The notes under the pieces: generated by a model
Seen by the model: the letters and a program-made list of their open reading frames with translations, nothing else
What the model was told of the DNA's origin: nothing
The model's database searches: none
Made by a program: the position numbers and the translations under genes
DNA from: Chlamydiota bacterium
GTDB taxonomy: Bacteria; Auribacterota; JACPWU01
Assembly (NCBI GenBank): GCA_016196885.1
Contig: JACPWU010000024.1
Span: forward strand, 1-32,000
DNA: 32,000 nucleotides
Direction: 5' to 3'
In this document: positions 3,457 to 21,051 of the stretch, piece by piece
How the letters are laid out: the number at the start of each line of letters is the position of its first letter
How positions within the stretch are numbered: the first letter of the stretch is position 1

Positions 3457-3813
3457 ATGGAAGCAAAAGCTTTTACAAGATTTGTCAGAATATCTCCTGT
3501 GAAGGGGCGTTTGATTGCAGATCAGATTCGAGGAAAAAATATTGCCGAAGCCTTGAATGTGGTGAATTTTTGTGCTCGAAAAGGCGGTGCCGTGGTCGGA
3601 AAAACTTTAAAATCTGCCCTTGCCAATGCCCGCGCCAAAGAAGGCATGGATTTAGATGCCTTAAAGGTGAGCAAAATTTGGATTGATGGAGGACCTTTTT
3701 GGAAAAGATTTATGCCCAGGGCGATGGGCCGCGCCACCAAGATTCGAAAGCGCATGAGTCATATTAATATTGTTTTGTCGGATGGAAAGACGGCTGCAAA
3801 GGCACAATCGTAG
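3457..3813 (+). CDS. rplV: 50S ribosomal protein L22
   Basis: 118 aa, MEAKAFTRFVRISPVKGRLIADQIRGK...; its TAG stop (3811-3813) lies inside the first arm of a palindromic repeat. Confidence 0.95.
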   Translation: MEAKAFTRFVRISPVKGRLIADQIRGKNIAEALNVVNFCARKGGAVVGKTLKSALANARAKEGMDLDALKVSKIWIDGGPFWKRFMPRAMGRATKIRKRMSHINIVLSDGKTAAKAQS

Positions 3814-3872
3814 TCGCCCGATTTATCGGGCAAACCCATGCAAGAAGATTGCCCCATGAATGGGGCGACTAC
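3810..3872. repeat. Palindromic double-hairpin element, copy 1 (63 bp)
   Basis: GTAGTCGCCCGATTTATCGGGC-aaacccatgcaagaagatt-GCCCCATGAATGGGGCGACTAC. The outer arms are GTAGTCGCCC/GGGCGACTAC and the inner hairpins are GCCCGAT..ATCGGGC and GCCCCAT..ATGGGGC. Confidence 0.9.
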
Positions 3873-3883
3873 AAAAGGAATTT

Positions 3884-4645
3884 ATGGGACAAAAAGTTAA
3901 TCCAATTGGTTTACGTTTGGGGATCAATCAAGAGTGGCGGTCGCGCTGGTACGCCACGAAGAAAGATTATCCAAAACTTTTGAGCGAGGATTTAAAAATC
4001 CGAGATTTTCTAAAGGAAAAACTTTTTTATTCAGGTGTTTCAAAAATTGAGATTGAGAGAGCGGGGCGTCTTCGTGTGATTATTCACACGGCCCGACCCG
4101 GGTTGGTCATTGGCCGAAAGGGTGCTGAAATAGACAAGCTCAAGGAAGATTTGGCCCAGATGACAGGTCAGGGAGAGGTGGTCATTGACATTGTCGAGGT
4201 AAAACATCCAGAAATAGATGCCCAATTGATTGGAGAGAATATCGCGCTTCAGTTGGTTCGAAGGGTTTCTTTTCGCCGGGCCATGAAAAAGGCTGTTCAA
4301 TCTGCTCTTTCGGGAGGCGCAAAGGGAATTAAGGTGACTTGCTCTGGAAGATTGGGCGGGGCTGAGATTGCGAGGCGAGAGGCTTATAAAGAGGGGAGCA
4401 TTCCTCTTCATACGTTAAGGGCGCTGATTGATTATGGTTTTGCGGAGGCCCATACGACGTATGGTCTTATCGGTGTCAAGGTATGGGTTTTCAAGGGTCA
4501 GGAATTGGTGAAGCAGACTCCACCCAAGGTTCAAGCTGAAGCGGGGGTCGAGAAAGTCTCCGTTGCTCCGGTTCCTCCTTCTAAGCCATTAGAAATTAAA
4601 GAAGTAAAGGAGTCGGACCATGCCGTTGATGCCAGCCCGAGTTAA
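3884..4645 (+). CDS. rpsC: 30S ribosomal protein S3 (with a Pro/Val/Lys-rich C-terminal tail)
   Basis: The canonical S3 start [13 protein letters not shown] is at ATG 3884 (track ORF starts at 3860). KH-domain sequence is present. Confidence 0.94.
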
Positions 4646-5036
4646 ATATCGAAAGGCACAAAAAGGTTGTAGATCTGGCAAAGCCACCCGTGTCACTACC
4701 TTAAGCTTTGGTGAGTATGGTCTTCAGACTTTAGAACGTGGATGGGTCACCAATATTCAGTTGGAGGCTATTCGTGTGGCGGTGGCTCGTCACATGAAGA
4801 GAAAAGGCAAAATTTGGTTGCGTCTTTTCCCGGATAAACCCATCACCAAAAAGCCGGCTGAGACCCGTATGGGTAAAGGAAAAGGGCAGCCTTCCGGTTG
4901 GGTGATTGTGGTAAAACCCGGCAATATTTTGATGGAAATAGAAGGTGTTCCGGAACCCGTTGCTAAAGAGGCTTTAAGTTTGGCATCGTATAAATTGCCG
5001 GTGAGGACCCGCTTTTTGGTGAGGCAGCACCATTAA
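4620..5036 (+). CDS. rplP: 50S ribosomal protein L16
   Basis: [16 protein letters not shown]..., with AAGGAG 6 nt upstream. Overlaps the rpsC 3' end by 26 nt. Confidence 0.95.
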
Positions 5037-5074
5037 AAGCAGTGAAGGGTGCGTAGTGTTTAGTGGATGATCCT

Positions 5075-5272
5075 ATGAAACCAAAAGAGATTCGAGATTT
5101 AACGAAGGACGAGGCAAATTTGAAATTGCGAGAGTTGGGAGACTCCCTTTTTAAATTGAGATCTCAAGGAAAAATGGGGCAGCTTGAGAATCCGGGTAAG
5201 ATTCGGCAGACGAAAAGAGACGTTGCCAGAATTCAAACTATTTTGAAGGAATGGGAAAAGAAAGAGAATTAA
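5075..5272 (+). CDS. rpmC: 50S ribosomal protein L29
   Basis: MKPKEIRDLTKDEANLKLRELGDSLFKLRSQ... from ATG 5075. The track start at 5063 is a GTG four codons upstream. Confidence 0.9.
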   Translation: MKPKEIRDLTKDEANLKLRELGDSLFKLRSQGKMGQLENPGKIRQTKRDVARIQTILKEWEKKEN

Positions 5273-5275
5273 CCT

Positions 5276-5569
5276 ATGGAAGCTAGAGATAGTCGTAAAG
5301 AAAAAAGGGGTGTGGTCATTCAGGATCGAATGGACAAAACGATTGTTGTCCAAGTTGAACGTCGTGAGCCTCATGTTATTTATGGCAAGGTGGTCAGGAA
5401 AGTGAAGAAATTTTATGTCCATGATGAAAAGGAAGAGGCTAGACCCGGGGATCACGTGCGCATTCAAGAGACGCGCCCCTTGAGTAAATTGAAAAGATGG
5501 CGTTTGGTCGAGATTGAACAGAAGGCCGAAGGGGTTGTGCCGGCCCAGCGAGAAGGTTCAGTGGAATGA
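5276..5569 (+). CDS. rpsQ: 30S ribosomal protein S17
   Basis: 97 aa, ...[42 protein letters not shown]... Confidence 0.93.
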
Positions 5570-5573
5570 CGTT

Positions 5574-5942
5574 ATGATTCAGCTCAGAACAAGATTAGAA
5601 ATTGCAGATAACTCGGGTGGCAGGAAAGCCGCTTGTATCAAGGTGCTTGGAGGAACTGCTCGTCGCTATGCTTCTCTCGGAGATGTGGTTGTGGCTTCCA
5701 TTAAGGAGGCGATTCCAGAGGGCATGGTCAAAAAGGGGGAAGTGGTGAAGGGCGTGGTGGTGAGAACCAAGAAGTCTGTGCGCCGCTTGGACGGGTCTTA
5801 CATCCGATTTGACTCTAATGCGATTGTCTTGATTGACAATCAGATGAATCCAAGGGGAACGCGTATTTTTGGACCTATTGCTCGAGAATTGCGCGACAAA
5901 AATTTTATGAAAATTATTTCTTTGGCGCCGGAAGTGCTTTAA
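5574..5942 (+). CDS. rplN: 50S ribosomal protein L14
   Basis: [27 protein letters not shown]... from ATG 5574. The track ORF from 5514 overlaps rpsQ and is an extension. Confidence 0.96.
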
Positions 5943-5946
5943 CGAG

Positions 5947-5970
5947 GTTCAAAAGTTCAAAGGTTCATTC
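5947..5970 (+). repeat. Octamer array GTTCAAAA-GTTCAAAG-GTTCATTC abutting the rplX ATG
   Basis: Read directly. The array ends at 5970 and the ATG is at 5971. Confidence 0.85.
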
Positions 5971-6306
5971 ATGAAGACAGAAACCGTTAGATACAAAACA
6001 TATTTAAAGAAAAATGATGTGGTCTTTGCCTTGGCGGGTCGCGAAAAAGGTAAGAAGGGTAAAATCCTTCAAGTGCTTCCAGAAAAGAATCGGGCCATCG
6101 TAGAGGGCTTGAATTTTTTGAAAAGGCATGCGAGACCTACGCAGAATAATCCTCAAGGAGGGGTGATTCAAAAAGAGGCTTCGATTCATTTGTCTAATTT
6201 GGCGCTCTTTTGCGCGAATTGCGATCGGCCAGTGCGAGTGGGCGTTAAGATTTTAGAAGAAGGGGCCAAAGAGCGTGTTTGTCGCAAATGTGGGGAAGAG
6301 GTTTAA
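5971..6306 (+). CDS. rplX: 50S ribosomal protein L24 (carries a C-terminal CxxC...CxxC motif)
   Basis: 111 aa with a KOW-like LKKNDVVFALAGREKGKKGKIL, plus synteny between rplN and rplE. Confidence 0.93.
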   Translation: MKTETVRYKTYLKKNDVVFALAGREKGKKGKILQVLPEKNRAIVEGLNFLKRHARPTQNNPQGGVIQKEASIHLSNLALFCANCDRPVRVGVKILEEGAKERVCRKCGEEV

Positions 6307-6313
6307 AGGAAAG

Positions 6314-6355
6314 TTGTAAGTTTTAAGTAAAAAACAAACTCCTTAAAACTTACAA
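6314..6355 (+). promoter_or_regulatory. Perfect 14-bp stem hairpin in the rplX-rplE spacer, with a third half-site downstream
   Basis: TTGTAAGTTTTAAG (6314-6327) is complementary to CTTAAAACTTACAA (6342-6355). CTTGTAACTT at 6362-6371 could pair alternatively with the second arm. Confidence 0.5.
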
Positions 6356-6390
6356 TTAGAGCTTGTAACTTATGGCTGGCTTGAGGTCTT

Positions 6391-6945
6391 ATGGAAAATA
6401 GAGTTTTAAAATTTTATCGAGAAAAGGTCGTTCCGGACCTGGCGAAGCGGTTGAATTTTAAGAATGCGCTCCGTGTTCCGCGCTTGGTTAAAATTGTTTT
6501 GAACATGGGTGTTCAGGAGGCGATCAAGGATTTCGCCCTTTTGGAATCTCACGCTCAGGAATTAGGTTTGATCACGGGCCAGAAGGCGGTGATCACACGG
6601 GCGAAGAAAAGCATCGCTGGATTTAAATTGAGGGAGGGAGATCCGATTGGATGCAAGGTGACGCTTCGAGGCTCAAAGATGTACGAATTCATGGATCGTT
6701 TTGTGAGTGTGGTGCTTCCCCGTATCCGTGATTTTAAGGGGCTTTCACCCAAGTCTTTTGACGGCCGTGGCAATTATAATCTGGGTCTTCAGGAGCAAGT
6801 GGTTTTTCCGGAGATCGAGTTGGATAAAATTAAGCAGATTCAAGGCATGGATGTCACCTTTGTCACTTCTGCAAAGACGAATGAAGAGGCGAAGGAATTG
6901 TTAACGGCCTTGGGAATGCCGTTTAAAATAAGTTCAAAGGTTTAA
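6391..6945 (+). CDS. rplE: 50S ribosomal protein L5
   Basis: 184 aa, ...VPRLVKIVLNMGV...AGFKLREGDPIGCKVTLRG... Confidence 0.96.
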   Translation: MENRVLKFYREKVVPDLAKRLNFKNALRVPRLVKIVLNMGVQEAIKDFALLESHAQELGLITGQKAVITRAKKSIAGFKLREGDPIGCKVTLRGSKMYEFMDRFVSVVLPRIRDFKGLSPKSFDGRGNYNLGLQEQVVFPEIELDKIKQIQGMDVTFVTSAKTNEEAKELLTALGMPFKISSKV

Positions 6946-7006
6946 AAGTTCAAAAGTTTAATCCCTACAGGGACTATAAAATCTGAAGTTCAAAGGTTCA
7001 AAAGTT
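6932..7006 (+). repeat. Two GTTYAAAR octamer arrays (6932-6963 and 6988-7006) flanking a short TCCCTacAGGGA palindrome
   Basis: The first array starts inside the last codons of rplE (KISSKV). The second ends at the rpsN ATG 7007. Confidence 0.85.
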
Positions 7007-7192
7007 ATGGCGAAAACATGTTTGATGGTAAAGCAGCGGCTGACTCCGAAGTTTAAAGTGCGCTATTACAACCGTTGCAAGCATTGCGGTAGGAGAAGGG
7101 CCTATTTGAGAAAGTTTGGGATTTGCCGTGTGTGTTTTCGCAAATACGCCTCTACGGGATTGATCCCGGGAGTCTTAAAGGCAAGTTGGTAA
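7007..7192 (+). CDS. rpsN: 30S ribosomal protein S14, short zinc-binding (type Z) form
   Basis: 61 aa with [10 protein letters not shown]...CRVCFR (CxxC-x12-CxxC), in the spc operon position. Confidence 0.93.
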
Positions 7193-7219
7193 TTAAGAAC
7201 AGTGTAGGGTCGAGAGGGA

Positions 7220-7278
7220 TGAGTCGTTAAGAAAATAATACCCTTAAAACTCACGACTCACGACTCACGACTCACGAC
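7220..7278 (+). repeat. (TCACGAC)x4 tandem heptamer array (7251-7278) with an upstream inverted copy TGAGTCGT (7220-7227)
   Basis: Four perfect units, read directly. The inverted copy can pair with the array in several registers. The array ends 1 nt before the rpsH AGGAG. Confidence 0.85.
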
Positions 7279-7292
7279 CAGGAGTTTTTTTT

Positions 7293-7691
7293 ATGAGTAT
7301 GTCTGATCCGATTTCAGATTTATTGACGCGCATTCGCAATGCGAGTTCGGCAAAAAAAGAATATGCCGATGTTCCTGCTTCTTCTTTGAAGGAGGAGGTT
7401 TTAAAGGTTTTGAAGAAGGAGGGATTTATTCAGGATTTCAAAAAGGCCGAAGAAGCGGCTCATCCTTGGCTGCGGGTTTATTTAAAATTTACCCCTTCAG
7501 GCATGAGTGTGATTCAGGGGATTCAAAGATCCAGCACGCCGGGGCGGCGTTTTTATGTGAGTGTAGATGAGATTCCCCGAGTCAAGGGAGGTTTGGGGGT
7601 TGCGATTCTCTCGACTTCGAAAGGAGTTCTTGCCGATCGTAAGGCAAAGTCTCTCCATGTTGGCGGAGAAGTTCTTTGTAAAGTTTGGTGA
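7293..7691 (+). CDS. rpsH: 30S ribosomal protein S8
   Basis: 132 aa, MSMSDPISDLLTRIRNA..., with AGGAG 8 nt upstream. Confidence 0.95.
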   Translation: MSMSDPISDLLTRIRNASSAKKEYADVPASSLKEEVLKVLKKEGFIQDFKKAEEAAHPWLRVYLKFTPSGMSVIQGIQRSSTPGRRFYVSVDEIPRVKGGLGVAILSTSKGVLADRKAKSLHVGGEVLCKVW

Positions 7692-7704
7692 TGGAATAAA
7701 AGAT

Positions 7705-7755
7705 GTTTTATGTTTTAAGTTTAAAAGCTTCCCTTTGTAACGTAAAACATGAAAC
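7705..7755 (+). repeat. Imperfect 13-bp inverted repeat GTTTTATGTTTTA ... TAAAACATGAAAC in the rpsH-rplF spacer
   Basis: 12 of 13 positions are complementary, with a 25-nt loop. Uses the CATGAAAC word family. Confidence 0.7.
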
Positions 7756-7773
7756 TAAAATCGGAGTTTTAAA

Positions 7774-8313
7774 ATGTCTCGTATTGGTCGAAAACCTATT
7801 TTGATTCCGAGCGGGGTCACTGTTCAAGTTGAGGGAAATGTAGTGAAGGTCAAGGGCCCGAAGGGCGAGATGGTCCAGGCCTGCCCGGACGGTGTCGAAG
7901 CGCAAGTCGAAGGGGGAAAGAGTATTCTCTTCAGTGTTCAGGATGAGTCCAAGCGCTTGAGCGCGATTCATGGTCTTTCCCGAAGTTTGTGCTTTAACAT
8001 GATGGAAGGCGTGACCAAGGGTTTTTCAAAGGAATTGGAAATTCAAGGCGTTGGTTTTCGAGCCAAGTTAGAAGGAAAGAAATTGGTCTTAGCTTTGGGA
8101 TTCACCCATCCGGTGGAATTCGTGATTCCTGAGGGCATTAAAATTGACATTGAAGAGCAGGTCAAAATCAAAGTTTCTGGGATAGACAAACAACGGGTGG
8201 GTGAAGTAGCGGCCAAGATTCGTCGTTTTCTTCCTCCCGAGCCTTACAAGGGTAAGGGAATTCGGTATGTGGGGGAACATGTCCGAAAGAAGGCCGGCAA
8301 GACAGTGGCTTAA
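7774..8313 (+). CDS. rplF: 50S ribosomal protein L6
   Basis: 179 aa, MSRIGRKPILIPSGVTVQVEGNVVKVKGPKGE... Confidence 0.95.
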   Translation: MSRIGRKPILIPSGVTVQVEGNVVKVKGPKGEMVQACPDGVEAQVEGGKSILFSVQDESKRLSAIHGLSRSLCFNMMEGVTKGFSKELEIQGVGFRAKLEGKKLVLALGFTHPVEFVIPEGIKIDIEEQVKIKVSGIDKQRVGEVAAKIRRFLPPEPYKGKGIRYVGEHVRKKAGKTVA

Positions 8314-8344
8314 TTTTGTCTTTGCGGCCATAAGGAAATAGATT

Positions 8345-8713
8345 ATGCAAGTCATTCATCGTCGTTCTGTGGGAAGGGTGAGGCGGCATTTGAGAATTCG
8401 CCGCCGGATGGAAGGGACTCTCGAGAAACCTCGCCTGACGGTTTTTAGAAGTCACAAACATCTTTATGCTCAAATGATTAATGATCTGGAGGGCAAAACT
8501 TTGTTGACTGTTTCGACATTGTCTCCTCTTGTGAGAGAGAAGGTGAAATACGGAGGAAATGTCAAGGCCGCCGAGGACTTGGGGGAAATTCTGGCCGAGG
8601 AAGCCAAAAAGAGCAAGATTCAAAACGTGATTTTCGATCGTTCGGGTTATCGCTATCATGGTCGCATTAGGGCGTTGGCTGATGCGGCAAGAAAGGGTGG
8701 CCTTGTTTTTTAA
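8345..8713 (+). CDS. rplR: 50S ribosomal protein L18
   Basis: 122 aa, ...RRHLRIRRRMEGTLEKPRLTVFRSHKHLYAQ...GYRYHGRIRALADAARKGGLVF. Confidence 0.93.
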   Translation: MQVIHRRSVGRVRRHLRIRRRMEGTLEKPRLTVFRSHKHLYAQMINDLEGKTLLTVSTLSPLVREKVKYGGNVKAAEDLGEILAEEAKKSKIQNVIFDRSGYRYHGRIRALADAARKGGLVF

Positions 8714-8731
8714 AATGTTCAAAATTCAAAT

Positions 8732-8788
8732 GTAGTCGCCCCGTTTATGGGGCAATGCAATAGATTGCCCGATAAATCGGGCGACTAC
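8732..8788. repeat. Palindromic double-hairpin element, copy 2 (57 bp, inner hairpins in the opposite order)
   Basis: GTAGTCGCCCCGTTTATGGGGC-aatgcaatagatt-GCCCGATAAATCGGGCGACTAC, between rplR and rpsE. Confidence 0.9.
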
Positions 8789-8839
8789 GAGATCATTTGA
8801 GATTTGGAATTTCCGGTTTATCCGGGTGAGGGGAGTTTT

Positions 8840-9409
8840 ATGGCAGAACAAGAAGGGGTGGAAAAGGTAGGTAAAGATTCTCCAGGTAAAGAGTCTGGGA
8901 AATCGAGTGGAAAAAGGATTTCTCGGGGAGAGGTCTCTTCAGAGTTTCTCGAGAAAGTGGTTTACATCAATCGCTGCGCCAAGGTGGTGAAGGGCGGGAG
9001 ACGCTTTAGTTTTAGTGCCTTGGTGGTGGTAGGTGATGGCAGGGGCAAAGTGGGCTTTGGCTTGGGGAAGGCGAACGAAGTTTCAGATGCTATTCGTAAA
9101 GGGACTGACTATGCCAAAAAGAGCATGAAGTCTGTCTGCCTGAGAGGAACCACCATTCCGCATGAAGCCTTTTCCAAATTCGATGGCGGAAGAGTTTTCT
9201 TGAAGCCTGCTACCAAGGGGACGGGAATCATTGCCGGAGGGGGTGTGAGAGCTGTTTTAGAGGCGGCGGGTGTGAGAGATGTTTTGGCCAAGTCTATGGG
9301 TTCGTCCAATGCCATCAATGTGGTGAGGGCGACGATGGGATGCTTAGAATCCTTGAAGGATTTGACGATGATTCGGGCGATGCGTGGAGGATCTCATGAA
9401 TCTCTCTAG
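8840..9409 (+). CDS. rpsE: 30S ribosomal protein S5 (with an N-terminal Lys/Ser/Gly-rich extension)
   Basis: ATG 8840 is preceded by GAGGGGA. The core [39 protein letters not shown] is present. The track start at 8804 is further upstream. Confidence 0.92.
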
Positions 9410-9848
9410 TATTTTAAGCGTGGATGACCACCGCAAGAAAATGAAGAGGGTCGGCCGCGGACCTGGCTCGGGTCATGGGAAAACCAGTGGCAAGGGCAAT
9501 AAAGGCCAAAAGGCACGTTCTGGAAAGGGTGCCCGGATTCGACCCGGATTTGAAGGCGGTCAAATGCCTCTTTATCGAAGGCTTCCGAAACGGGGCTTCG
9601 TGAATGAAAGAAAAGACCAGTGGACACTCATCAATTTGGATCAGCTGAGTGCCTTTGAAAAAGGCGATTGTGTTTCGCCTGAGATTTTAAAAGAAAAAGG
9701 TTTCGCCAAGAATATCAAAGATGGCATTAAACTTTTGGGACGAGGCGATTTAAAATTTCCCTTAACCATTCAAGTCCATGCCGTGAGTTCCAGTGCCCGT
9801 GCAAAAGTTGAGAAGGCAAAAGGAAAAGTTGAAATCATTCCTTTTTGA
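9396..9848 (+). CDS. rplO: 50S ribosomal protein L15
   Basis: MNLSSIL...[27 protein letters not shown], with GGAGG 5 nt upstream of ATG 9396. Overlaps the rpsE 3' end, so no room is left for rpmD. Confidence 0.93.
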
Positions 9849-9937
9849 TATTTGCATTGTCATTTTGATCTTTGATTTTTAATTTTTGATTTCTATGGGT
9901 TTGTTTGATTCCGGCTTGTCCGGGTTAGGTTACCTAA

Positions 9938-11377: not shown

Positions 11378-11422
11378 GTAGTCGCCCCATTTATGGGGCT
11401 GCCCGATGAATCGGGCGACTAC
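11378..11422. repeat. Palindromic double-hairpin element, copy 3 (45 bp, minimal form)
   Basis: GTAGTCGCCCCATTTATGGGGC-t-GCCCGATGAATCGGGCGACTAC, between secY and adk. Confidence 0.9.
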
Positions 11423-13214: not shown

Positions 13215-13282
13215 TTCAGCGTATAGCGTATAGCGTACAGCGTTCAGAAAAAATCGTCTCCTTATAAAAACTGACCGCTGAA
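13215..13282 (+). repeat. Heptamer array TTCAGCG-TATAGCG-TATAGCG-TACAGCG-TTCAG (13215-13247) with a downstream inverted copy CGCTGAA (13276-13282)
   Basis: Read directly. It occupies the infA-rpsM spacer where rpmJ usually sits. Confidence 0.85.
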
Positions 13283-13313
13283 TGCTCGCCCGTTGATTGC
13301 TAAGGAGAAACAA

Positions 13314-13712: not shown

Positions 13713-13719
13713 ATCCATT

Positions 13720-14124: not shown

Positions 14125-14133
14125 TAAAAAGGA

Positions 14134-14186
14134 ATGTTTCAAGTTTTATGTCTCATGTTTCAAGTTAAAAACATCAAACATGAAAC
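14134..14186 (+). repeat. Direct 12-nt repeat ATGTTTCAAGTT (14134-14145, 14155-14166), followed by an inverted-type CAAACATGAAAC
   Basis: Read directly. Same GTTTCATG/CATGAAAC word family as 7705-7755 and 23245-23296. Upstream of rpsD. Confidence 0.75.
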
Positions 14187-14208
14187 AATAGTTCAAAGGA
14201 TTAATGCT

Positions 14209-14835: not shown

Positions 14836-14846
14836 GAGGTTCATCC

Positions 14847-15848
14847 ATGAAGTTAGGACGTTTTGAATTGCCCAAGCAATTGGTAAGAGATGAGCAAAGT
14901 GCAACACCCACTTACGCGAAGTTTTACGCGGAGCCTTTTGAAAAGGGTTTTGGTTCCACGATTGGAAACTCTTTGCGGCGAGTGCTTTTGTCTTCGATTG
15001 AAGGTGCCGCGGTCCGCAGTATTAAGATTGATGGGGTTTTGCATGAATTTAGTACCCTGCCTGGCGTGGTGGAAGATGTGCCTCAAATCATTTTGAATGT
15101 GAAGAACATTCTCTTCAGGGCCCATTCTCGTGAGATGAAAAAGGTTGAAATCAATGTGGACAAAGTGGGTGAAGTGAGGGCGTCTGATATCAAGGTGGAT
15201 AATACCCTAGAGATTGTGAATCCGGATTTTCATATCGCTGAACTCACGAAGAAGACAAAGTTTCGATTGGAGATGGAAGTGGGCGTGGGAAGAGGGTATC
15301 TCCCTTCTGAAAGAAATAAAGATGTGGATCAACCGATCGGTGTGATTCCGATTGATTCTATTTTTACCTCTGTCCGAAAGGTAAAATATTATATTGAGGA
15401 TACGCGGGTGGGCCAGATGACTGATTTCGACCGCCTGGTGCTTGAAATTTGGACCGATGGAAGAATCTCTCCAGAGGACGCCCTTCGCCAAGCCTCGGGT
15501 ATTTTAAGACATCATCTGAACGCCTTTGTTAATTTTGATGAGAATCTCATTCAATTTGAGGAAGAGCCGACGCAAGAGGATCAGAAGAAGGCCCAGACTG
15601 AGAAAGTGCTTAACATGAGCATTGATGAGATTGAGCTCTCTGTTCGTGCCTCTAATTGCATTCAGAAGGCGAATATCAAAACGATCGGGGATTTGGTTCA
15701 GAAGACGGAAGGAGAAATGCTCAAGTATAAGAATTTTGGCAAGAAGTCCTTGAATGAGATTAAGAAAATTCTCAGTGATATGGGACTCTCACTGGGTATG
15801 AGTTTGGAAGAGGCCCGCGGCAAGACTGAGGAGAAGGCAGTGCTATGA
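14847..15848 (+). CDS. rpoA: DNA-directed RNA polymerase subunit alpha
   Basis: 333 aa, ...FEKGFGSTIGNSLRRVLLSSIEGAAV... and a C-terminal domain ...IDEIELSVRASNCIQKANIKTIGDLV. AGGAGG lies upstream. Confidence 0.96.
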   Translation: MKLGRFELPKQLVRDEQSATPTYAKFYAEPFEKGFGSTIGNSLRRVLLSSIEGAAVRSIKIDGVLHEFSTLPGVVEDVPQIILNVKNILFRAHSREMKKVEINVDKVGEVRASDIKVDNTLEIVNPDFHIAELTKKTKFRLEMEVGVGRGYLPSERNKDVDQPIGVIPIDSIFTSVRKVKYYIEDTRVGQMTDFDRLVLEIWTDGRISPEDALRQASGILRHHLNAFVNFDENLIQFEEEPTQEDQKKAQTEKVLNMSIDEIELSVRASNCIQKANIKTIGDLVQKTEGEMLKYKNFGKKSLNEIKKILSDMGLSLGMSLEEARGKTEEKAVL

Positions 15849-16273
15849 GGCATCAGAAATTATCGAAGAGACTGAGTCTTCCTACAAAGCATCGCCGTGC
15901 CCTTTTGGCCAATTTGGTGAAAAACCTTTTTCGCCATGAGAGAATCCAGACCACTTTACTCAGGGCCAAGGTTGCATCTCGATTTGCCGATCGCATGATT
16001 ACCCTGGCCAAGCGAAAGGATCTTCATGCCGAGCGTCAGGCCGCACGTTTCTTGACGGATCGCGGGATTGTGAAAAGACTTTTTAAGGAGATCGGACCTC
16101 GTTTCCAGGCGCGGCACGGGGGTTACACCCGTGTGATTCGTTTGGACCGGCGGGTGGGAGATCGTGCCTTCATGGCCCTCTTGGAATTAGTGGATCACAC
16201 CTTTCAACCTCCTGCACAACCTTCGAAGGAGGCCAGGAAGAAAGAAAAGTTGGAGGAAGCCAAGGCTTCATGA
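15845..16273 (+). CDS. rplQ: 50S ribosomal protein L17
   Basis: MRHQKLSKRLSLPTKHRRALLANL...GGYTRVIRL; ATGA overlap with the rpoA stop. Confidence 0.94.
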   Translation: MRHQKLSKRLSLPTKHRRALLANLVKNLFRHERIQTTLLRAKVASRFADRMITLAKRKDLHAERQAARFLTDRGIVKRLFKEIGPRFQARHGGYTRVIRLDRRVGDRAFMALLELVDHTFQPPAQPSKEARKKEKLEEAKAS

Positions 16274-16635
16274 GGGAAGTTCATTCTCATCAACACGCTT
16301 GGAAAAATTTTTTCCAGAACACCGCTTATTCTGTAGAAGCCTACGAGTTTGTTTTGGACACGCTTGATTTTGCCCTTCGTAAACTCGACAAACCTCGTCA
16401 TTTAACCGCACAAGAACTTTTAGAAAGACTGCGGGAATATGCCCTGAAAATTTATGGACCTATGGCGAAAACACTTCTCGAAAACTGGGGGGTCAAGAAC
16501 TGTCAAGATTTTGGAGAAATTGTTTTTGGCCTTGTTCAGTATGGCATCATTTCGAAGCAGGACTCCGATTCGAAAGAGGATTTTAAAGTGGGTTATGATT
16601 TTGAAGAGGCTTTTCAAAAGCCTTTTAATGTATAG
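16270..16635 (+). CDS. Conserved protein of unknown function resembling the Minf_1886 family of the Planctomycetes/Verrucomicrobia group
   Basis: 121 aa. From memory of that family, the stretch ...HLTAQELLERLREYALKIYGPMAKTLLENWGVKNCQDFGEIVFGLVQYGIISKQDSDSKEDFKVGYDFEEAF is typical. The ATG overlaps the rplQ stop as ATGA. Confidence 0.7.
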   Translation: MREVHSHQHAWKNFFQNTAYSVEAYEFVLDTLDFALRKLDKPRHLTAQELLERLREYALKIYGPMAKTLLENWGVKNCQDFGEIVFGLVQYGIISKQDSDSKEDFKVGYDFEEAFQKPFNV

Positions 16636-16643
16636 AAGACGAC

Positions 16644-16943
16644 ATGAGGATGTCTATGCTCGAAGAAAACGTTAAACAATCTGAAATGTTGTTCATGGGC
16701 CTTGTGGCAATGCTGGCGCAAGGGGCCATGCAGCATTTGGGTAAAATGGCAGATCCCTTAACGGGCAAGGTTGAGAAGAACTTAGAGGCTGCGAAGGCCA
16801 CCATTGATCTTTTGAGTGTGATTAAGCAAAAAACCAAAGGGAATTTAAGTCCAGAAGAGGAGCGGGCTCTGGATGCTTTTTTAACCAACCTCCAGCTCAA
16901 TTATGTGGAGGAATCTTCTTCAACCCCCTCGGAGAAAAGCTGA
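16644..16943 (+). CDS. DUF1844-like small protein
   Basis: 99 aa. From memory of DUF1844 members, ...LVAMLAQGAMQHLGKMADPLTGKVEKNLEAAKATIDLLSVIKQKTKGNLSPEEERALDAFLTNLQLNYVE fits. Confidence 0.68.
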   Translation: MRMSMLEENVKQSEMLFMGLVAMLAQGAMQHLGKMADPLTGKVEKNLEAAKATIDLLSVIKQKTKGNLSPEEERALDAFLTNLQLNYVEESSSTPSEKS

Positions 16944-17485
16944 TGGATTGGGATATCCAGAGCCTTTCAAAGGTGTGCGTTCAATGTCAACATCCCCTTA
17001 CGGAGGGGAATGTTTTTCATTGTTTTCTCGTTTTGTCGAGCGAGGGGTCTCTTGAGAGAAAGGATTTTTGTGGGGGATGCTATCCTCAGATGAAGGCCTC
17101 CTGGGAAGGTCGTCCCGATTTGTATTCTTATTGGGAGGGCCGGGTCCAACGGGTGGAAGAAATGCCGCAACCAAAACCTTTGCCCTATGAGCGCTTTGAA
17201 ATTCTTTTGAGAAAATACATGGTTTCTGAAAGTGATCGAGACCGTAAATTTACTTACATTCTTGCGCTCCTTCTGGAAAGAAAAAAAATATTTGTCCATA
17301 GAGAGAGTGTGATTCGAGAAGCCCAGGACAAGTCTTTTTTGGTGTACGAACATTTGGAGACAGGAGAGACTTTCATCTTAGAGGATCCTCGTTTAAGTTT
17401 GAATCAAGTAGAAGAATTGAAAAGTGAATTAAAAGATTTGATGGAGCAAGAGTTTCAGACTGTTTTGGTTGAGAAGGCATCGTAG
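16943..17485 (+). CDS. Hypothetical protein with an N-terminal CxxC...CxxC zinc-ribbon-like motif
   Basis: 180-aa ORF with CVQC...CGGC near the N-terminus. Its start overlaps the previous stop as TGATG. No family recognised. Confidence 0.6.
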   Translation: MDWDIQSLSKVCVQCQHPLTEGNVFHCFLVLSSEGSLERKDFCGGCYPQMKASWEGRPDLYSYWEGRVQRVEEMPQPKPLPYERFEILLRKYMVSESDRDRKFTYILALLLERKKIFVHRESVIREAQDKSFLVYEHLETGETFILEDPRLSLNQVEELKSELKDLMEQEFQTVLVEKAS

Positions 17486-17535
17486 ACCCTTGGCCCTCTT
17501 CTGGTAGGGACCTTTATTAAGGTGTCCATACTCCT

Positions 17536-19125
17536 ATGAGTGAAAAATTATCCATGGCCCGCTCCATGTCTCGCGTGGGCTTTTGGACTTTTACGAGCCG
17601 TTTGTTGGGTTTGGTGAGAGACAGCATGGTGGCTCGCCTCTTTGGGGTCGGGTTTGCGACGGATGCCTTCATGGTAGCCTTTACCATTCCCAACTTGCTC
17701 CGGCGCTTGTTGGCCGAGGGCGCTTTGTCCATTGCCTTCGTCCCCATTTTTACAGACTCTTTGACCCGTCAACGAAAGGAAGATTCTCAAGACACCTTTC
17801 AGGCCATTTTTACGATCTTTTCCGCTTTGTTAATTCTCATCAGTATTTTGGGAGTTTTTTTTTCCCCATTTCTTGTTAAGGTTTTCGCGCCCGGCTTTGA
17901 AATTGAAAAATTTCATTTGACCGTTCTCTTGAATCGCTTGATGTTCCCCTTTATTTTTCTGATGGGATCTTCTTCGGTGGCGATGGGCCTTTTGAATGCC
18001 TTGAATTCCTTTTCTGTCCCTGCGGCTGCTCCCATTTTACTCAATGTCTGCATGATTTTGAGTTCTTTTCTTTTTTACCGCTTTTTGAATCCTCCCATTC
18101 TGGCTTTGGGCTGGGGGGTTCTCGCAGGGGGGGTGACACAATGGCTGCTTCAAGTTTGGAAGGTAGGACAATTCGGTTTTAAAGTTCGCTTCTCTTGGGA
18201 TTGGAAACATCCCGGTTTACAACGCGTCTTTCGTTTGATGGCCCCAACGGTTTTTGGGGTGGCCGTTTATCATTTGAATATTTTGGTCTCGCGGGCCTTG
18301 GCCTCTCTTCTTCCTCAGGGAAGTGTGACCTACCTTTATTATTCGGATCGGTTTTTGGAATTTCCCTTGGGAATTTTTGCCTTTTCGATTGCAACGGTGG
18401 CGCTTCCTCAATTGTCTCGGGAAGCGGCAAGTGGAAATGATGATCGTTTGAAGGAGACGCTCTTTTTTGCTTTAAGATTGGCCTCGTTTATTTGTATTCC
18501 TGCCATGTTTGGGCTCATGATGCTTCGCCTTCCCATTCTCTCGCTTGTTTTTCAATATGGGAAGTTTTCTCTTCAAAATACTTTAGAATTGGCACAAGTT
18601 TTTGGGATGGCCTCACTGGGATTGATCGCGGTGGCGGGACTCAGAATTGTGGTTCAGGCCTTTTATTCGATGGGAGATGTGAAGACCCCTGTCAAGGCGG
18701 CTTGTGCAAGTTTCCTTGTGAATGCAAGCCTCGGCTTTGTTTTAATGAGATGGCTTGGCCCTTCAGGACTGACTCTCTCCAGTTCCATTGCGGCCTGGGT
18801 ACAATGGCTCATGCTATTTTGGTTTTTGGGGCGCCGCGTGGGGAAAATTTCTTTCGGGATTTTTTTTCGTGAGATTTGGCCTATTCTCCTTGCTTCTTTG
18901 GTGATGGCCCTCGTGATTTGGCCCTTGGGGGGAAGCGATCTTCGTTTCTTTCCAAAGACCGTTGTATTAAAATTGGCCTATGTTTTAGGGGCAGTGGCGG
19001 TGGGAGCGGGGATTTACATGGGACTTGTCTATCTTTTCGGATTTAAGGAGTTGAGGGGATTGATAAAGAAGTTGAGGGCAAGGGAGGAGAGGTTGCCTGT
19101 GGCAGGGCCTGACATTTCTGATTAA
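17536..19125 (+). CDS. murJ: Lipid II flippase MurJ (MviN)
   Basis: 529-aa polytopic protein, ...SRLLGLVRDSMVARLFGVGFATDAFMVAFTIPNLLRRLLAEGALSIAFVPIF..., a hallmark MurJ N-terminus. Confidence 0.9.
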   Translation: MSEKLSMARSMSRVGFWTFTSRLLGLVRDSMVARLFGVGFATDAFMVAFTIPNLLRRLLAEGALSIAFVPIFTDSLTRQRKEDSQDTFQAIFTIFSALLILISILGVFFSPFLVKVFAPGFEIEKFHLTVLLNRLMFPFIFLMGSSSVAMGLLNALNSFSVPAAAPILLNVCMILSSFLFYRFLNPPILALGWGVLAGGVTQWLLQVWKVGQFGFKVRFSWDWKHPGLQRVFRLMAPTVFGVAVYHLNILVSRALASLLPQGSVTYLYYSDRFLEFPLGIFAFSIATVALPQLSREAASGNDDRLKETLFFALRLASFICIPAMFGLMMLRLPILSLVFQYGKFSLQNTLELAQVFGMASLGLIAVAGLRIVVQAFYSMGDVKTPVKAACASFLVNASLGFVLMRWLGPSGLTLSSSIAAWVQWLMLFWFLGRRVGKISFGIFFREIWPILLASLVMALVIWPLGGSDLRFFPKTVVLKLAYVLGAVAVGAGIYMGLVYLFGFKELRGLIKKLRAREERLPVAGPDISD

Positions 19126-19137
19126 AGGAGGTTTCTC

Positions 19138-20916
19138 ATGAAAAGAGTTTTTTTAATTAGGCATATGCACTTGATTCCCCTTTGTAGTCGCCCGATTCAT
19201 CGGGCAAACCCATGCAAGGGGCACAGCCCCATGAATGGGGCGACTACAACTTCTTGCCATGGCGCTTGCTATCTAAGGGGAATCAAGTGCATATGCCAAG
19301 AAAATGTGTCTTTGGAGGTGGACTCTCAGGTTAAATCCGTGGTGGTGTATCCGGATCGCGTACTGGTAAAGAGAATGGCTTCTTTGGATTTGAAGGAAGG
19401 ATCTTTTCAAGCTGTTTTTAAGGATTTGCCGGATCTTCTGGAGGAAGATTCTTTAAAGGCGCTCGGAAGGGGAGAAGCCCGTGTGAAAATTTTGGGTCTT
19501 GAAACGAAGCGTGTTTATCTGGAAAAGCCTTATGAAGGGGAGATTCGCAAGTTGAAAGAGGCAGTCACACAAACCGAGGATGAAATTTCTGTTTTGGACG
19601 ATCAGGAGGCTGTGCTCGACAAAGAAAAAAGTTTGGTCGAGGGGATTCGCGTTTATTCTGGCGAACAATTTTCAAAAGAATTTATCACGCGATCTCCCAG
19701 TCCAGACGATTGGGAAAAGATGGTTCAATTTATGACAGGACATCTTTCAAAAATCAATGAAGAGAAAATGTCTTTGACTCAAAAGAAAAGAGAATGGACG
19801 GAGAGTTTGGACGTGATGAAGCGCAAGTTGTCCGAACTTTCTTCAGGCACTCGTTCCAAGCGCCATGTGACCGTTCAGTTGGAAGCCCTTTCAGCGGGTC
19901 ATTTTGAATTGGAGGTTTCTTATGTGCTTCCAGGGGCGAGCTGGTATCCCGGTTATGAGGCGAGAGCCTCTCTCAAAGAAGGAAAAGTTGAATTCTCTTC
20001 TGTAGGCAATGTCAAGCAGATCACCGGTGAGGATTGGAAGGGTGTGGAGCTTTCTCTTTCAACGGCTCGGCCTGCGGTAGGAGCCCAGATGCCTAAAATA
20101 GAGGCTTGGGAGTTGAACCCTTATCAGCCTCCTCTTCTTTACCAGAGTCAGGCAGCTCCTGAAAAGATGGAGAGATTGGGAAAGGGGAGAGTGATGTACG
20201 GTCTGACCGATGATTATTCTCCGGAGCCGCAAAGGGCTTCGAAGGAAGAAGCGCTTGTGGAGGCAGAAGTGGCCATGAGTGAAACCATTCGCAAAGGAAC
20301 AGCTGTAGAGTTTAAAATCCCTGGCTTTGTGGATATCCCCAGCGATCAAAACATGCACAAGGTCTGGATTTCTGCTCTCGATCTAGCCGGAAAATTTCAT
20401 TATTTGGCCACGCCCAAATTAAGTCCTTACGCCTATTTGGTAGCCGATGTGAAAAATGAATCAGATATTCAATTTCTAGAAGGGGATGTGCGTGTATTCC
20501 TCGAGGGAGATTTCGTCGGCACTTCTCACATTGAGCCTGTAGCGCCGGGAGAAGAGGTCAGTCTCCATCTGGGAATTGATGAAGGATTAGAAATCAAACG
20601 AGAGGGGGTGGAGGATAAACAAGACGAAACTTCTTTTTTTTCCAAGAAAAAAGAGTGGGTCCGTTCTTACAAAATCAAAATCAAGAATTTTAAGGACAAG
20701 GATGTCGAATTGACTCTCTGGGATCAAATTCCCGTTTCCAATCATGAGGACATTGTCGTGGATGAAGTTCAATGGAGTGAGAAACCGGTCGAACAAACCG
20801 GGCGTGGTCTTGTGAAATGGGTTTTGAATATTCCAGCCAAACAGGAAAAAGAAGTCACGATTCATTTTAGAATTACTTATCCAACTCAGATGCAAGTGGA
20901 GGGGTTGGAGGGGTGA
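19138..20916 (+). CDS. DUF4140/DUF4139 protein (MuiA-like, TIGR02231-type by recollection), with a 46-codon repeat-derived insertion after codon 7
   Basis: AAGGAGG lies 7 nt upstream of ATG 19138. The family-like N-terminus VKSVVVYPDRVLVKR...FKDLPDLLEEDSLKA begins after the insertion. An alternative start is GTG 19306, which has no obvious SD. Confidence 0.72.
   Translation: MKRVFLIRHMHLIPLCSRPIHRANPCKGHSPMNGATTTSCHGACYLRGIKCICQENVSLEVDSQVKSVVVYPDRVLVKRMASLDLKEGSFQAVFKDLPDLLEEDSLKALGRGEARVKILGLETKRVYLEKPYEGEIRKLKEAVTQTEDEISVLDDQEAVLDKEKSLVEGIRVYSGEQFSKEFITRSPSPDDWEKMVQFMTGHLSKINEEKMSLTQKKREWTESLDVMKRKLSELSSGTRSKRHVTVQLEALSAGHFELEVSYVLPGASWYPGYEARASLKEGKVEFSSVGNVKQITGEDWKGVELSLSTARPAVGAQMPKIEAWELNPYQPPLLYQSQAAPEKMERLGKGRVMYGLTDDYSPEPQRASKEEALVEAEVAMSETIRKGTAVEFKIPGFVDIPSDQNMHKVWISALDLAGKFHYLATPKLSPYAYLVADVKNESDIQFLEGDVRVFLEGDFVGTSHIEPVAPGEEVSLHLGIDEGLEIKREGVEDKQDETSFFSKKKEWVRSYKIKIKNFKDKDVELTLWDQIPVSNHEDIVVDEVQWSEKPVEQTGRGLVKWVLNIPAKQEKEVTIHFRITYPTQMQVEGLEG
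19160..19297. mobile_element. 138-bp composite MITE-like insertion with perfect 21-bp terminal inverted repeats
   Basis: GGCATATGCACTTGATTCCCC (19160-19180) is the exact reverse complement of GGGGAATCAAGTGCATATGCC (19277-19297). The segment encloses repeat copy 4 and a GCCATGGC palindrome. 138 bp is 46 codons, in frame and stop-free within the 19138 ORF. Confidence 0.55.
19184..19247. repeat. Palindromic double-hairpin element, copy 4 (64 bp), nested inside the 19160-19297 composite
   Basis: GTAGTCGCCCGATTCATCGGGC-aaacccatgcaaggggcaca-GCCCCATGAATGGGGCGACTAC. It shares the linker AAACCCATGCAAG with copy 1. Confidence 0.9.
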
Positions 20917-20979
20917 AGGAGCCATTTTTCACCTGAAAATAGTCTTTAGTCATTCTTATACAATGACTCATGATAGCTT

Positions 20980-21051
20980 GTAGTCGCCCGATTTATCGGG
21001 CAATGCCCAATACCCCAATGTCATAGACCGCCCCATAAATGGGGCGACTAC
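20980..21051. repeat. Palindromic double-hairpin element, copy 5 (72 bp)
   Basis: GTAGTCGCCCGATTTATCGGGC-aatgcccaataccccaatgtcatagacc-GCCCCATAAATGGGGCGACTAC. Overlaps the 3' end of the pabC-like ORF. Confidence 0.9.

What the first reader, a model, noticed from the sequence alone, without database searches (positions are those of the whole stretch)
3810..21051. Five copies of a GTAGTCGCCC-bounded double-hairpin palindromic element in 32 kb
There are copies at 3810-3872, 8732-8788, 11378-11422, 19184-19247 and 20980-21051. All share identical 10-nt terminal arms, GTAGTCGCCC and GGGCGACTAC.

All five also share two inner 7-bp hairpins, GCCCGAT-nn-ATCGGGC and GCCCCAT-nn-ATGGGGC. The loops vary (TT, GA, AA, TC). 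The order of the two hairpins is swapped in copies 2 and 3, meaning those copies sit in the opposite orientation.

The minimal 45-bp copy folds as a three-way junction: a 6-bp outer stem plus two hairpins. The G/C tracts are shared between stems, so alternative pairings are possible. Longer copies differ only in the central linker. Copies 1 and 4 share the linker AAACCCATGCAAG.

The elements sit inside co-transcribed, highly expressed operons (rplV/rpsC, rplR/rpsE, secY/adk). They would therefore be part of the ribosomal protein mRNAs. I do not recognise this consensus from the REP/BIME, ERIC, Correia or RPE families.
Basis: seen in the sequence. Interest (0 to 1): 0.72.

Follow-up and report, generated by a model that had tools for sequence, protein, structure and literature searches.

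The report
REP doublets in ribosomal protein operons
The five palindromic elements are real, but they are an ordinary kind of bacterial selfish repeat: paired GTAG-tagged REP hairpins, which elsewhere flank a dedicated REP-associated tyrosine transposase (RAYT) gene, recently inserted between genes of an uncultured groundwater bacterium.

Summary
There are five copies at the stated coordinates, making ten arms of GTAGTCGCCC where 0.5 would be expected by chance.

Each copy is a head-to-head pair of two different REP units. One is GTAG-TC-GCCCGAT-TY-ATCGGGC and the other is GTAG-TC-GCCCCAT-TY-ATGGGGC.

This is the published anatomy of GTAG-tagged REPs, REPINs and BIME-like dimers: an unpaired GTAG, a 7-bp perfect stem, a TY loop, and heterodimers with GTAG on the outside.

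- **Structure.** Across 49 distinct units from many MAGs, GTAGT and the apex ATTYAT never change while the lower stem covaries (94.5% paired against 71% in shuffles).
- **Transposase link.** In five other genomes, genes scoring above NCBIfam's cutoff for "REP-associated tyrosine transposase" are flanked by REP units of the same type. In three of them (L093, L146, L153) these are GAT/CAT doublets whose CAT arm differs from the window's by as little as one compensated base pair.
- **Mobility.** Relatives with 83-88% SecY identity have empty sites at the same intergenic positions. The copies are therefore recent insertions, not conserved regulators.
- **Fold.** The predicted fold is one long interrupted hairpin, not a three-way junction.

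No RAYT could be sought in the rest of this MAG. The exact consensus was not found in Rfam or in the literature searched.

Verdict: a new member of a known kind, of modest interest.

The parts
3810..3872 (.). Copy 1, 63 bp. GAT arm 3810-3831 (+), 19-nt linker, CAT arm 3851-3872 (-). Bases 2-4 of its GTAG are the rplV stop codon. The rpsC Shine-Dalgarno sequence starts 1 nt after the element.
   Evidence: 35.5 and 33.4 bits
8732..8788 (.). Copy 2, 57 bp, in the opposite orientation. CAT arm 8732-8753 (+) carries one A>G change that gives a G.T pair. A 13-nt linker follows, then GAT arm 8767-8788 (-). It lies between rplR (stop 8713) and rpsE (start 8840).
   Evidence: 23.8 and 35.5 bits
11378..11422 (.). 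Copy 3, the minimal 45-bp doublet, in the opposite orientation. CAT arm 11378-11399 (+), 1-nt linker, GAT arm 11401-11422 (-). It lies 90 nt after the secY stop and 135 nt before adk.
   Evidence: The Logan contig L002 ends 6 nt into it.
19184..19247 (.). Copy 4, 64 bp. GAT arm 19184-19205 (+), 20-nt linker, CAT arm 19226-19247 (-). It lies between murJ and the DUF4140/DUF4139 gene.
20980..21051 (.). Copy 5, 72 bp. GAT arm 20980-21001 (+), 28-nt linker, CAT arm 21030-21051 (-). It lies between convergent genes. In the window's version the aminotransferase ORF (20993-21850, minus strand) reads 59 nt into it.
19160..19297 (.). Perfect 23-bp inverted repeat (19160-19182 and 19275-19297) that encloses copy 4 plus 27 nt. 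Its relation to the REP doublet is unexplained.
   Evidence: RNA fold -88.6 kcal/mol, z = -11.9

Best explanation
Each element is a head-to-head (GTAG-outward) heterodimer of two GTAG-tagged REP units. It is a REPIN/BIME-like, non-autonomous mobile element of the kind that a REP-associated tyrosine transposase (RAYT / TnpA-REP, an HUH Y1 enzyme) binds and cuts as folded single-stranded DNA.

**Shown here.**
- The anatomy of the elements.
- The conservation pattern: GTAGT and the apex are fixed while the lower stem covaries.
- The specific association of this REP type with one RAYT clade in other genomes.
- The absence of the elements from orthologous sites in relatives.

**Inferred.**
- From published biochemistry on group 3 RAYTs, the RAYT reads the hairpin apex and needs GTAG to cleave next to the unit.
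- Copies spread through single-stranded DNA at replication, leaving no target-site duplication.
- The five copies here landed wherever an intergenic spacer, or the last codons of a gene, tolerated them.
- Because copies 1-4 lie between co-directional genes, they are presumably transcribed. They would then add very stable hairpins (-29 to -41 kcal/mol) to those mRNAs. This is a side effect that may alter mRNA decay or the translation of neighbouring genes, and it is not the reason the elements exist.
For: **Anatomy.** Each unit has an unpaired GTAG plus TC, a 7-bp perfect stem and a TT/TC loop. Two different units sit in inverted orientation with 1-28 nt between them. This matches the published definition: terminal GTAG, 6-13 bp stems, TY loops, head-to-head dimers preferred and heterodimers common (PMC3733652).

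**Covariation.** The test used 49 distinct units, anchored only on the 5' half and the apex.
- 94.5% of cells pair, against 71.2% in shuffles and 24-46% when the partner is slid.
- 78 double-change cells, against 21 in shuffles.
- Within-arm Watson-Crick pairing is 97%, against 67% between arms.
- 0 of 36 doublets have identical arms.

**RAYT link.**
- The genes in L093, L146 and L140 score 93-97 bits on NCBIfam NF047646, "REP-associated tyrosine transposase", whose cutoff is 80.
- The only PDB match is E. coli TnpA-REP 4ER8, with the HUH and YIxxNPVKHG motifs aligned.
- These genes are flanked by doublets such as GTAGTCAGGCGATTCATCGCC-5 nt-GCGCCATCAATGGCGCGACTAC.
- L153, which was not used to build the model, carries about eight units around its RAYT gene. 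Four of them score 33 bits, as high as the window's.
- Its CAT arm GTAGTCGCGCCATTYATGGCGC differs from the window's GTAGTCGCCCCATTYATGGGGC by one compensated pair.
- RAYTs outside this clade carry CTTYAG-apex REPs instead.

**Mobility.**
- In relatives with 83-88% SecY identity, rplR-rpsE is 9-11 nt (126 nt here) and secY-adk is 13-51 nt in two relatives, and 211 nt without any REP unit in a third (270 nt here).
- The model finds 10 hits in the window and 0 in 56 kb of syntenic DNA from three relatives.
- There is no flanking direct repeat. The flanks instead extend the palindrome (T...A, TT...AA).

**Agreement with published biochemistry** (PMC8266576).
- GTAG is needed for cleavage.
- A loop base is read specifically.
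- Complementary changes at the three bottom stem positions did not impair cleavage.
- A perfect stem is required.
Against: - No RAYT gene lies in the window (tblastn). None was called in the 20.5 kb of the NCBI record held as L058 (record 19261-39746), which extends about 8 kb past the window end. The rest of the MAG could not be searched.
- No RAYT flanked by the exact GCCCGAT/GCCCCAT stems was found.
- Copy number outside these 40 kb is unknown. The copies are clustered: five in the first 21 kb and none in the remaining 11 kb of the window or in the roughly 8 kb of the record beyond it.
- Transposition by any RAYT in vivo has not been demonstrated in the literature read. That literature says REPs "might represent" mobilisable elements.
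Confidence: 0.85

Rival explanations
1. The elements are selected RNA-level cis-regulators of the ribosomal and secY operons. They would act as intercistronic stabilisers, RNase processing sites or translation modulators, kept because they tune the stoichiometry of neighbouring genes.
For: - The RNA folds are very stable: -29 to -41 kcal/mol, z = -6 to -9.
- Copies 1-4 lie between co-directional genes.
- Copy 1 abuts both the rplV stop codon and the rpsC ribosome-binding site.
- One arm carries a change that keeps pairing only as G.U.
- REPs in E. coli are reported to affect mRNA turnover (background cited in PMC3479197 and PMC3733652).
Against: - Orthologous spacers in relatives with 83-88% SecY identity lack the elements.
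- Both orientations occur within the same transcription direction.
- Copy 5 lies between convergent genes.
- Units with the same arm sequences sit in unrelated contexts in many phyla.
- G.T pairs make up about a third of the non-Watson-Crick cells (9 of 28). That is about what unselected mutation would give, so there is no sign of RNA-specific selection.
- No U-tract follows any copy on the sense strand.
Confidence: 0.08
2. The elements are domesticated DNA-level sites, like E. coli BIMEs that bind gyrase, IHF or Pol I. They would structure the chromosome near highly transcribed operons, with a RAYT serving only to maintain them.
For: - The five copies cluster in the 21 kb that holds the most highly expressed operons. 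None lies in the remaining 11 kb of the window or in the roughly 8 kb of the record beyond it.
- RAYTs behave like single-copy, vertically inherited host genes (PMC5581495).
Against: - No binding-site evidence is available.
- Sites are empty in close relatives.
- With only five copies, the clustering may be chance.
Confidence: 0.05
3. The element is a classical MITE derived from a DDE-transposase insertion sequence, using the 22-24 bp terminal inverted repeats.
For: The arms form 88-92% complementary terminal inverted repeats of 24-25 nt.
Against: - No target-site duplication flanks any copy.
- The two ends are each self-complementary hairpins whose stems covary internally rather than with each other.
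- No recurrent transposase neighbour was found among 52 loci carrying the unit.
- The only gene type found repeatedly bracketed by this unit is a RAYT.
Confidence: 0.02

Closest known systems
GTAG-tagged REP superfamily, head-to-head heterodimers (Di Nocera, De Gregorio & Rocco 2013, PMC3733652)
   Same: - Unpaired terminal GTAG, a short perfect stem (7 bp) and a 2-nt TY loop.
- A dinucleotide lies between GTAG and the stem, as described for GTAG-1 and GTAG-2.
- Complementary stem variants occur.
- Dimers have GTAG outside and are made of two different units with variable spacers.
- Locations are between co-directional or convergent genes and at gene 3' ends.
- The superfamily is already reported in the PVC superphylum.
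   Different: The specific stems and apex (GCCCSAT-TY-ATSGGGC, apex ATTYAT) were not found in that paper's text or supplements. Its figure with the 24 consensus sequences is not held, so identity with one of the numbered families cannot be excluded.
REPINs of Pseudomonas fluorescens (Bertels & Rainey 2011, PMC3116915 and PMC3337134)
   Same: - Two REPs lie in inverted orientation with a short spacer.
- The whole doublet is predicted to fold as one hairpin.
- The elements are non-autonomous and linked to a RAYT.
   Different: - The two arms here are always different units (0 of 36 identical).
- Selection is visible on each arm's own hairpin, not on arm-to-arm pairing.
- A RAYT in the same genome has not been shown.
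- Population size is unknown.
E. coli BIMEs with TnpA-REP (RayT, PDB 4ER8) and S. maltophilia group 3 REPtrons (PMC3479197, PMC8266576)
   Same: - GTAG lies 5' of the palindrome.
- Two REP types are paired in inverted orientation.
- The flanking-gene product is homologous to 4ER8.
- The REPs are perfect palindromes with a conserved apex and a tolerant stem base, as for S. maltophilia.
   Different: - E. coli REPs are longer, imperfect palindromes with a bulge.
- The RAYT clade found here is only about 25-30% identical to E. coli RayT.
- No biochemistry exists for this clade.

Membership tests
GTAG-tagged REP superfamily | Unpaired GTAG tetranucleotide at one end of a short palindrome | tested here: met
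   All ten arms start with GTAG followed by an unpaired TC. GTAGT is invariant in all 49 distinct units, though the anchor pattern required it.
GTAG-tagged REP superfamily | Stem of 6-13 bp with complementary (covarying) variants and a very short loop, often TY | tested here: met
   The stem is 7 bp and the loop is TT or TC when read in the GTAG orientation. Five of the 7 pairs show double changes, with 94.5% of cells paired against 71% in shuffles.
GTAG-tagged REP superfamily | High-copy, dispersed, mostly extragenic distribution in the genome | tested here: inconclusive
   There are five doublets in 32 kb, all in or at the edge of intergenic DNA. Only about 40 kb of the MAG could be read, and the last 19 kb or so holds none.
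REPIN (REP doublet forming a hairpin) | Two REPs in inverted orientation, separated by a short spacer, that fold together into a hairpin | tested here: met
   The minimum-free-energy fold of all five as RNA, and of four of five as DNA, is one long arm-to-arm hairpin with two mismatches.
REPIN / REPtron | A cognate RAYT gene in the same genome, itself flanked by the same REPs | not testable with these tools
   There is no RAYT in the window, and none was called in the part of the record held beyond it. In other genomes the feature is met for the same REP type: L093, L146, L153, L140 and L145.
RAYT (for the flanked genes in L093, L146 and L140) | Scores above the curated cutoff of NCBIfam NF047646, with the HUH motif and the catalytic-Tyr motif | tested here: met
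   Scores are 93-97 bits against a cutoff of 80. NHYH and YIHYNPVKHG align to 4ER8. Pfam Y1_Tnp is at or below its cutoff for two of the three.
DDE-type MITE | Terminal inverted repeats flanked by a target-site duplication | tested here: not met
   No direct repeat flanks any of the five copies.
Intrinsic terminator | GC-rich hairpin followed by a U-tract on the transcribed strand | tested here: not met
   No sense-strand terminator call falls at any copy, and region-wide counts are at shuffle level.
Any Rfam family | Covariance-model match | tested here: not met
   There were 0 matches at gathering score and 0 at E <= 1.

The most novel reading that the evidence does not exclude
This REP type (GTAGT, a covarying stem and an ATTYAT apex) and its well-conserved RAYT clade would form a single REP-RAYT lineage spread across many mostly uncultured phyla. 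The phyla involved include Stahlbacteria, WOR-3, Zixibacteria, Poribacteria, Planctomycetota, Nitrospirota, Elusimicrobiota and CPR, as well as this MAG, which is labelled Chlamydiae but is close to Omnitrophota.

Near-identical heterodimers, with partly conserved linkers, occur in MAGs labelled Actinomycetota and Nitrospinota. That would imply repeated cross-phylum transfer of a REP-RAYT system, which is usually described as vertically inherited. Its insertions would reach into the core ribosomal protein operons and donate stop codons and C-terminal tails to essential genes.
Probability: 0.2. Interest if true: 0.5.

Novelty: new member of a known kind. Interest (0 to 1): 0.3.

Why it matters
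The result extends GTAG-REP/RAYT systems, studied mostly in Proteobacteria, to an uncultured PVC-related groundwater lineage and to a broad set of candidate phyla.

It gives a clean natural "SELEX" picture of what one RAYT clade probably reads: GTAGT and the apex stay fixed while the lower stem is free to covary.

It also shows that such elements can settle inside the S10/spc/secY gene cluster, even supplying the rplV stop codon.

For annotation, recognising the doublets explains three things:
- the unusually long spacers in these operons;
- contig breaks in short-read assemblies;
- spurious ORF extensions.

It does not reveal a new kind of system.

Tried and rejected
1. **Finding the RAYT in the window's own MAG.**
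   - tblastn with E. coli RayT and a Stahlbacteria RAYT against the window found nothing, and no RAYT was called in L058.
   - The plan to match NCBI protein accession ranges failed because most RAYT hits carry no accession.
2. **The first RAYT found next to the unit.** The gene at L008 1500-2045 turned out to be bracketed by a different REP (GGAGTAGGGCGTTTACGCCC), so it is not the cognate enzyme.
3. **Recurrent neighbour genes.** None was found among the 52 loci carrying the unit.
4. **Literature search by sequence.** It returned only chance primer matches to the 10-mers and none to the 16-mers. The supplements of Di Nocera 2013 contain none of the motifs.
5. **Viral contigs.** There was a single match, so this is not a phage feature.
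6. **Cross-phylum identity as evidence of transfer.** I rejected the identity of the 22-mer as sufficient evidence on its own.
   - The scan pattern itself fixed the GCCC stem.
   - About 17 chance matches are expected in 596 Gb, by my estimate from the pattern's degeneracy.
   - The singletons in Nioella, Pseudofulvimonas and a Gammaproteobacteria MAG lie in coding-like GC-rich DNA without partner arms.
7. **Other readings considered and rejected on anatomy.** These were integron attC sites (no GTTRRRY/RYYYAAC core), CRISPR (no unique spacers) and IS200/IS605 ends (there the hairpins share one orientation).


Full report
**1. The observation**

The 10-mer GTAGTCGCCC occurs exactly ten times in the window, as five convergent pairs at the coordinates given. 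Dinucleotide-preserving shuffles give 0.53 on average.

Reading the sequence shows each element is made of two 22-nt units pointing outward.
- The "GAT arm" is GTAG-TC-GCCCGAT-TY-ATCGGGC.
- The "CAT arm" is GTAG-TC-GCCCCAT-TY-ATGGGGC.
- The arms are separated by 1-28 nt.

Copies 1, 4 and 5 have the GAT arm on the left, and copies 2 and 3 have the CAT arm on the left. Copies 1 and 4 share the linker start AAACCCATGCAAG. One arm (8732-8753) carries a single A>G change.

Three searches find only these ten arms and no decayed copies:
- a 16-mer pattern search;
- a 22-mer consensus scan allowing 6 mismatches;
- a covariance model run without filters.

**2. Where the window comes from**

SecY of the window is encoded on NCBI contig JACOUD010000058.1 of MAG GCA_016178005.1. 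NCBI labels it "Chlamydiae bacterium". Two accessions, and contigs of 77,719 and 77,993 nt, carry the same SecY.

Beyond its own clade, the nearest SecY proteins are from Omnitrophota, at 65-68% identity.

The NCBI record differs from the window by one substitution and lacks window bases 19298-19402 and 21080-21123. Both extra segments restore conserved protein motifs, so the window probably comes from the sibling assembly.

All five elements are present in both versions, so they are not assembly artefacts. A short Logan contig stops 6 nt into copy 3, as assemblers do at repeats.

**3. Gene context**

- **Copy 1** fills the whole rplV-rpsC spacer. The TAG of its GTAG is the rplV stop codon, and the rpsC ribosome-binding site begins 1 nt after the element.
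- **Copy 2** lies between rplR and rpsE.
- **Copy 3** lies between secY and adk.
- **Copy 4** lies between murJ and a DUF4140/DUF4139 gene.
- **Copy 5** lies between that gene and a convergent class IV aminotransferase gene, whose ORF in the window reads 59 nt into the element.

The remaining 11 kb of the window and the roughly 8 kb of the record held beyond it carry no copy.

No sense-strand terminator signature accompanies any copy. Rfam gives nothing at gathering score or at E <= 1.

**4. Structure**

ViennaRNA predicts one long arm-to-arm hairpin, interrupted at the two positions where the arms differ.
- This holds for all five copies as RNA (-29.4 to -40.6 kcal/mol, z = -6.2 to -9.0).
- It holds for four of five as DNA. 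Only the 45-nt copy folded as DNA gives the two-hairpin junction.

Comparative data show which pairing is under selection. I took every 22-mer in the fetched loci that matches GTAGT-N6-ATTYAT-N5. This fixes only the 5' half and the apex. It gave 49 distinct sequences.
- With the hairpin imposed, 94.5% of cells pair, against 71.2% in column shuffles and 24-46% when partners are slid.
- Five of the 7 pairs show double changes.
- There are 78 double-change cells, against 21 in shuffles.

In 36 head-to-head doublets, Watson-Crick pairing is 97% within arms and 67% between arms. No doublet has two identical arms.

So each arm's own hairpin is the conserved structure. GTAGT and the apex AT-TY-AT are fixed, and the lower four to five stem pairs are free to covary.

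**5. Relatives elsewhere**

Most hits are in MAGs of Candidatus Stahlbacteria (three MAGs, many contigs), WOR-3, Zixibacteriota and Poribacteria. Single hits come from several other phyla:
- Planctomycetota;
- Nitrospirae;
- Nitrospinota;
- Elusimicrobiota;
- Doudnabacteria;
- others.

In nearly all of these the unit is followed by an inverted partner with another stem, for example GTCTGATAAATCAGACAACTAC.

MAGs labelled Actinomycetota (L007) and Nitrospinota (L009) carry the same GAT/CAT heterodimer.

Two caveats apply. The pattern fixed the stem, so the apparent identity across phyla is partly a result of the search design. By my estimate from the pattern's degeneracy, roughly 17 chance matches are expected in 596 Gb. 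The GC-rich singletons without partner arms look like such chance matches.

Only one viral contig matched. No gene recurs next to the unit.

**6. The transposase link**

A tblastn search with E. coli RayT found one Y1_Tnp gene in a Stahlbacteria locus, but it is bracketed by a different REP.

I used its homologues to fetch 80 RAYT loci from metagenomes. Most of these RAYT genes are bracketed by GTAG(T)-hairpin units, usually with a CTTYAG apex.

One locus, L093, is bracketed by doublets of the window's type: GTAGTAAGGCGATTCATCGCC-7 nt-GCGCTATGAATAGCGCGACTAC. There are two upstream and one downstream. Its protein has 1,927 homologues at E <= 1e-5.

Contigs of four close homologues (70-89% identical) show ATTYAT-apex REP units on both sides of the gene. 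These are L146, L153, L140 and L145.
- In L146 and L153 they are GAT/CAT heterodimers like the window's.
- L140 and L145 carry AAT-type arms.
- In L153 the CAT arm GTAGTCGCGCCATTYATGGCGC differs from the window's by one compensated pair. L153 was fetched after model R1 was built, and four of its units next to the RAYT gene score 33 bits, as high as the window's.

Homologues at 53-66% identity (L141, L144, L147) carry CTTCAG-apex units instead.

The L093, L146 and L140 proteins score 93-97 bits on NCBIfam NF047646, "REP-associated tyrosine transposase", whose cutoff is 80. Their only PDB match is E. coli TnpA-REP 4ER8, with the HUH and YIxxNPVKHG motifs aligned.

**7. Mobility**

Three relatives with 83-88% SecY identity keep the same gene order but have short spacers.
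- rplR-rpsE is 9-11 nt, against 126 nt here.
- secY-adk is 13-51 nt in two relatives, against 270 nt here. A third has 211 nt without any REP unit.
- rplV-rpsC is 27 nt in one relative.

Model R1 with filters off finds 10 hits in the window and none in 56 kb of these relatives.

The five copies have arms with at most one substitution but very different linkers, and no target-site duplication. Together these point to recent insertions of a mobile or copied element. They do not support an ancestral regulatory feature of ribosomal operons.

**8. Comparison with the literature**

Di Nocera et al. 2013 (PMC3733652) define GTAG-tagged REPs by these features:
- an unpaired terminal GTAG;
- 6-13 bp stems with complementary variants;
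- loops often TY;
- preferred head-to-head dimers that are frequently heterodimers;
- locations between co-directional or convergent genes and sometimes inside gene ends;
- frequent RAYT association.

They list members in the PVC superphylum. All testable features are met here.

Corneloup et al. 2021 (PMC8266576) studied a perfect-palindrome REP-RAYT pair. They show that GTAG is needed for cleavage, that a loop base is read specifically, that complementary changes at the three bottom stem positions did not impair cleavage, and that a mismatch in the stem is harmful. This is the pattern seen in the covariation data here.

The specific consensus was not found in the text or supplements searched. 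The figure listing the 24 family consensus sequences is not held.

**9. Verdict**

The interpretation as an unrecognised type of element is not. These are GTAG-type REP head-to-head heterodimers (REPIN/BIME-like) of a type that, in other genomes, brackets one RAYT clade.

What remains open:
- whether this MAG still encodes the RAYT;
- how many copies it holds;
- whether the hairpins affect the mRNAs they sit in.

I rate it a new member of a known kind, of modest interest.

Noticed in passing
window 19160-19182 and 19275-19297: A perfect 23-bp inverted repeat encloses copy 4 plus 27 nt. The whole region folds at -88.6 kcal/mol (z = -11.9). The right arm ends 14 nt before the likely start of the DUF4140 gene, and the 105-nt difference from the NCBI record begins exactly at its end.
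   Followed up: partly
window 19298-19402, 21080-21123 and 8577: The window differs from NCBI JACOUD010000058.1 by two extra segments (105 and 44 nt) and one substitution. The extra segments encode conserved motifs: SVVVYPDRVLVKR of DUF4140 and DEAFLTNSLMGIVP of the aminotransferase. The deposited record therefore appears to carry deletions, or the window comes from the sibling MAG, whose contig is 77,993 nt.
   Followed up: partly
window 3811-3813 and 20993-21051: REP sequence is used as coding sequence. The rplV stop codon is the TAG of copy 1's GTAG. The last 19 or so codons and the stop of the aminotransferase ORF (minus strand) lie inside copy 5.
   Followed up: partly
window 23239-23318: A run of GTTTCAT heptamers faces an imperfect inverted copy (37-nt arms, 84% complementary). 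It lies in the spacer between two minus-strand genes, the chorismate-binding and AMP-binding enzyme genes.
   Followed up: no
L008 (minus strand, near 3700-3790); L028 near 1094-1150 and 4736-4790; L031 (minus strand): In Stahlbacteria and an unclassified MAG, a second small palindromic element is inserted exactly in the apical loop of the partner REP hairpin, with a few loop bases duplicated. One example is CCCCGCTCCTTTATAAGGGGCGTGGGT. This looks like a repeat that targets REP apices.
   Followed up: no
L039 about 5870-6010 (minus strand): A head-to-tail tandem array of at least five copies of the same REP unit, each followed by the identical 12-nt spacer AGGTTTCTCTCT (period 34). It lies just upstream of a gene start.
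   Followed up: no
L093 36-2249; L146 5373-9925; L153 3511-6435 and 7430-10081: In three loci the RAYT of the L093 clade sits directly beside a DUF1156 or N6_N4 methyltransferase with ResIII or DUF499 genes, which is a defence-like gene set. This may reflect related genomes or a real linkage.
   Followed up: no
whole window: The MAG is labelled Chlamydiae at NCBI. Outside its own small clade, however, its SecY is closest to Candidatus Omnitrophota (65-68% identity), so the phylum label may be unreliable.
   Followed up: partly
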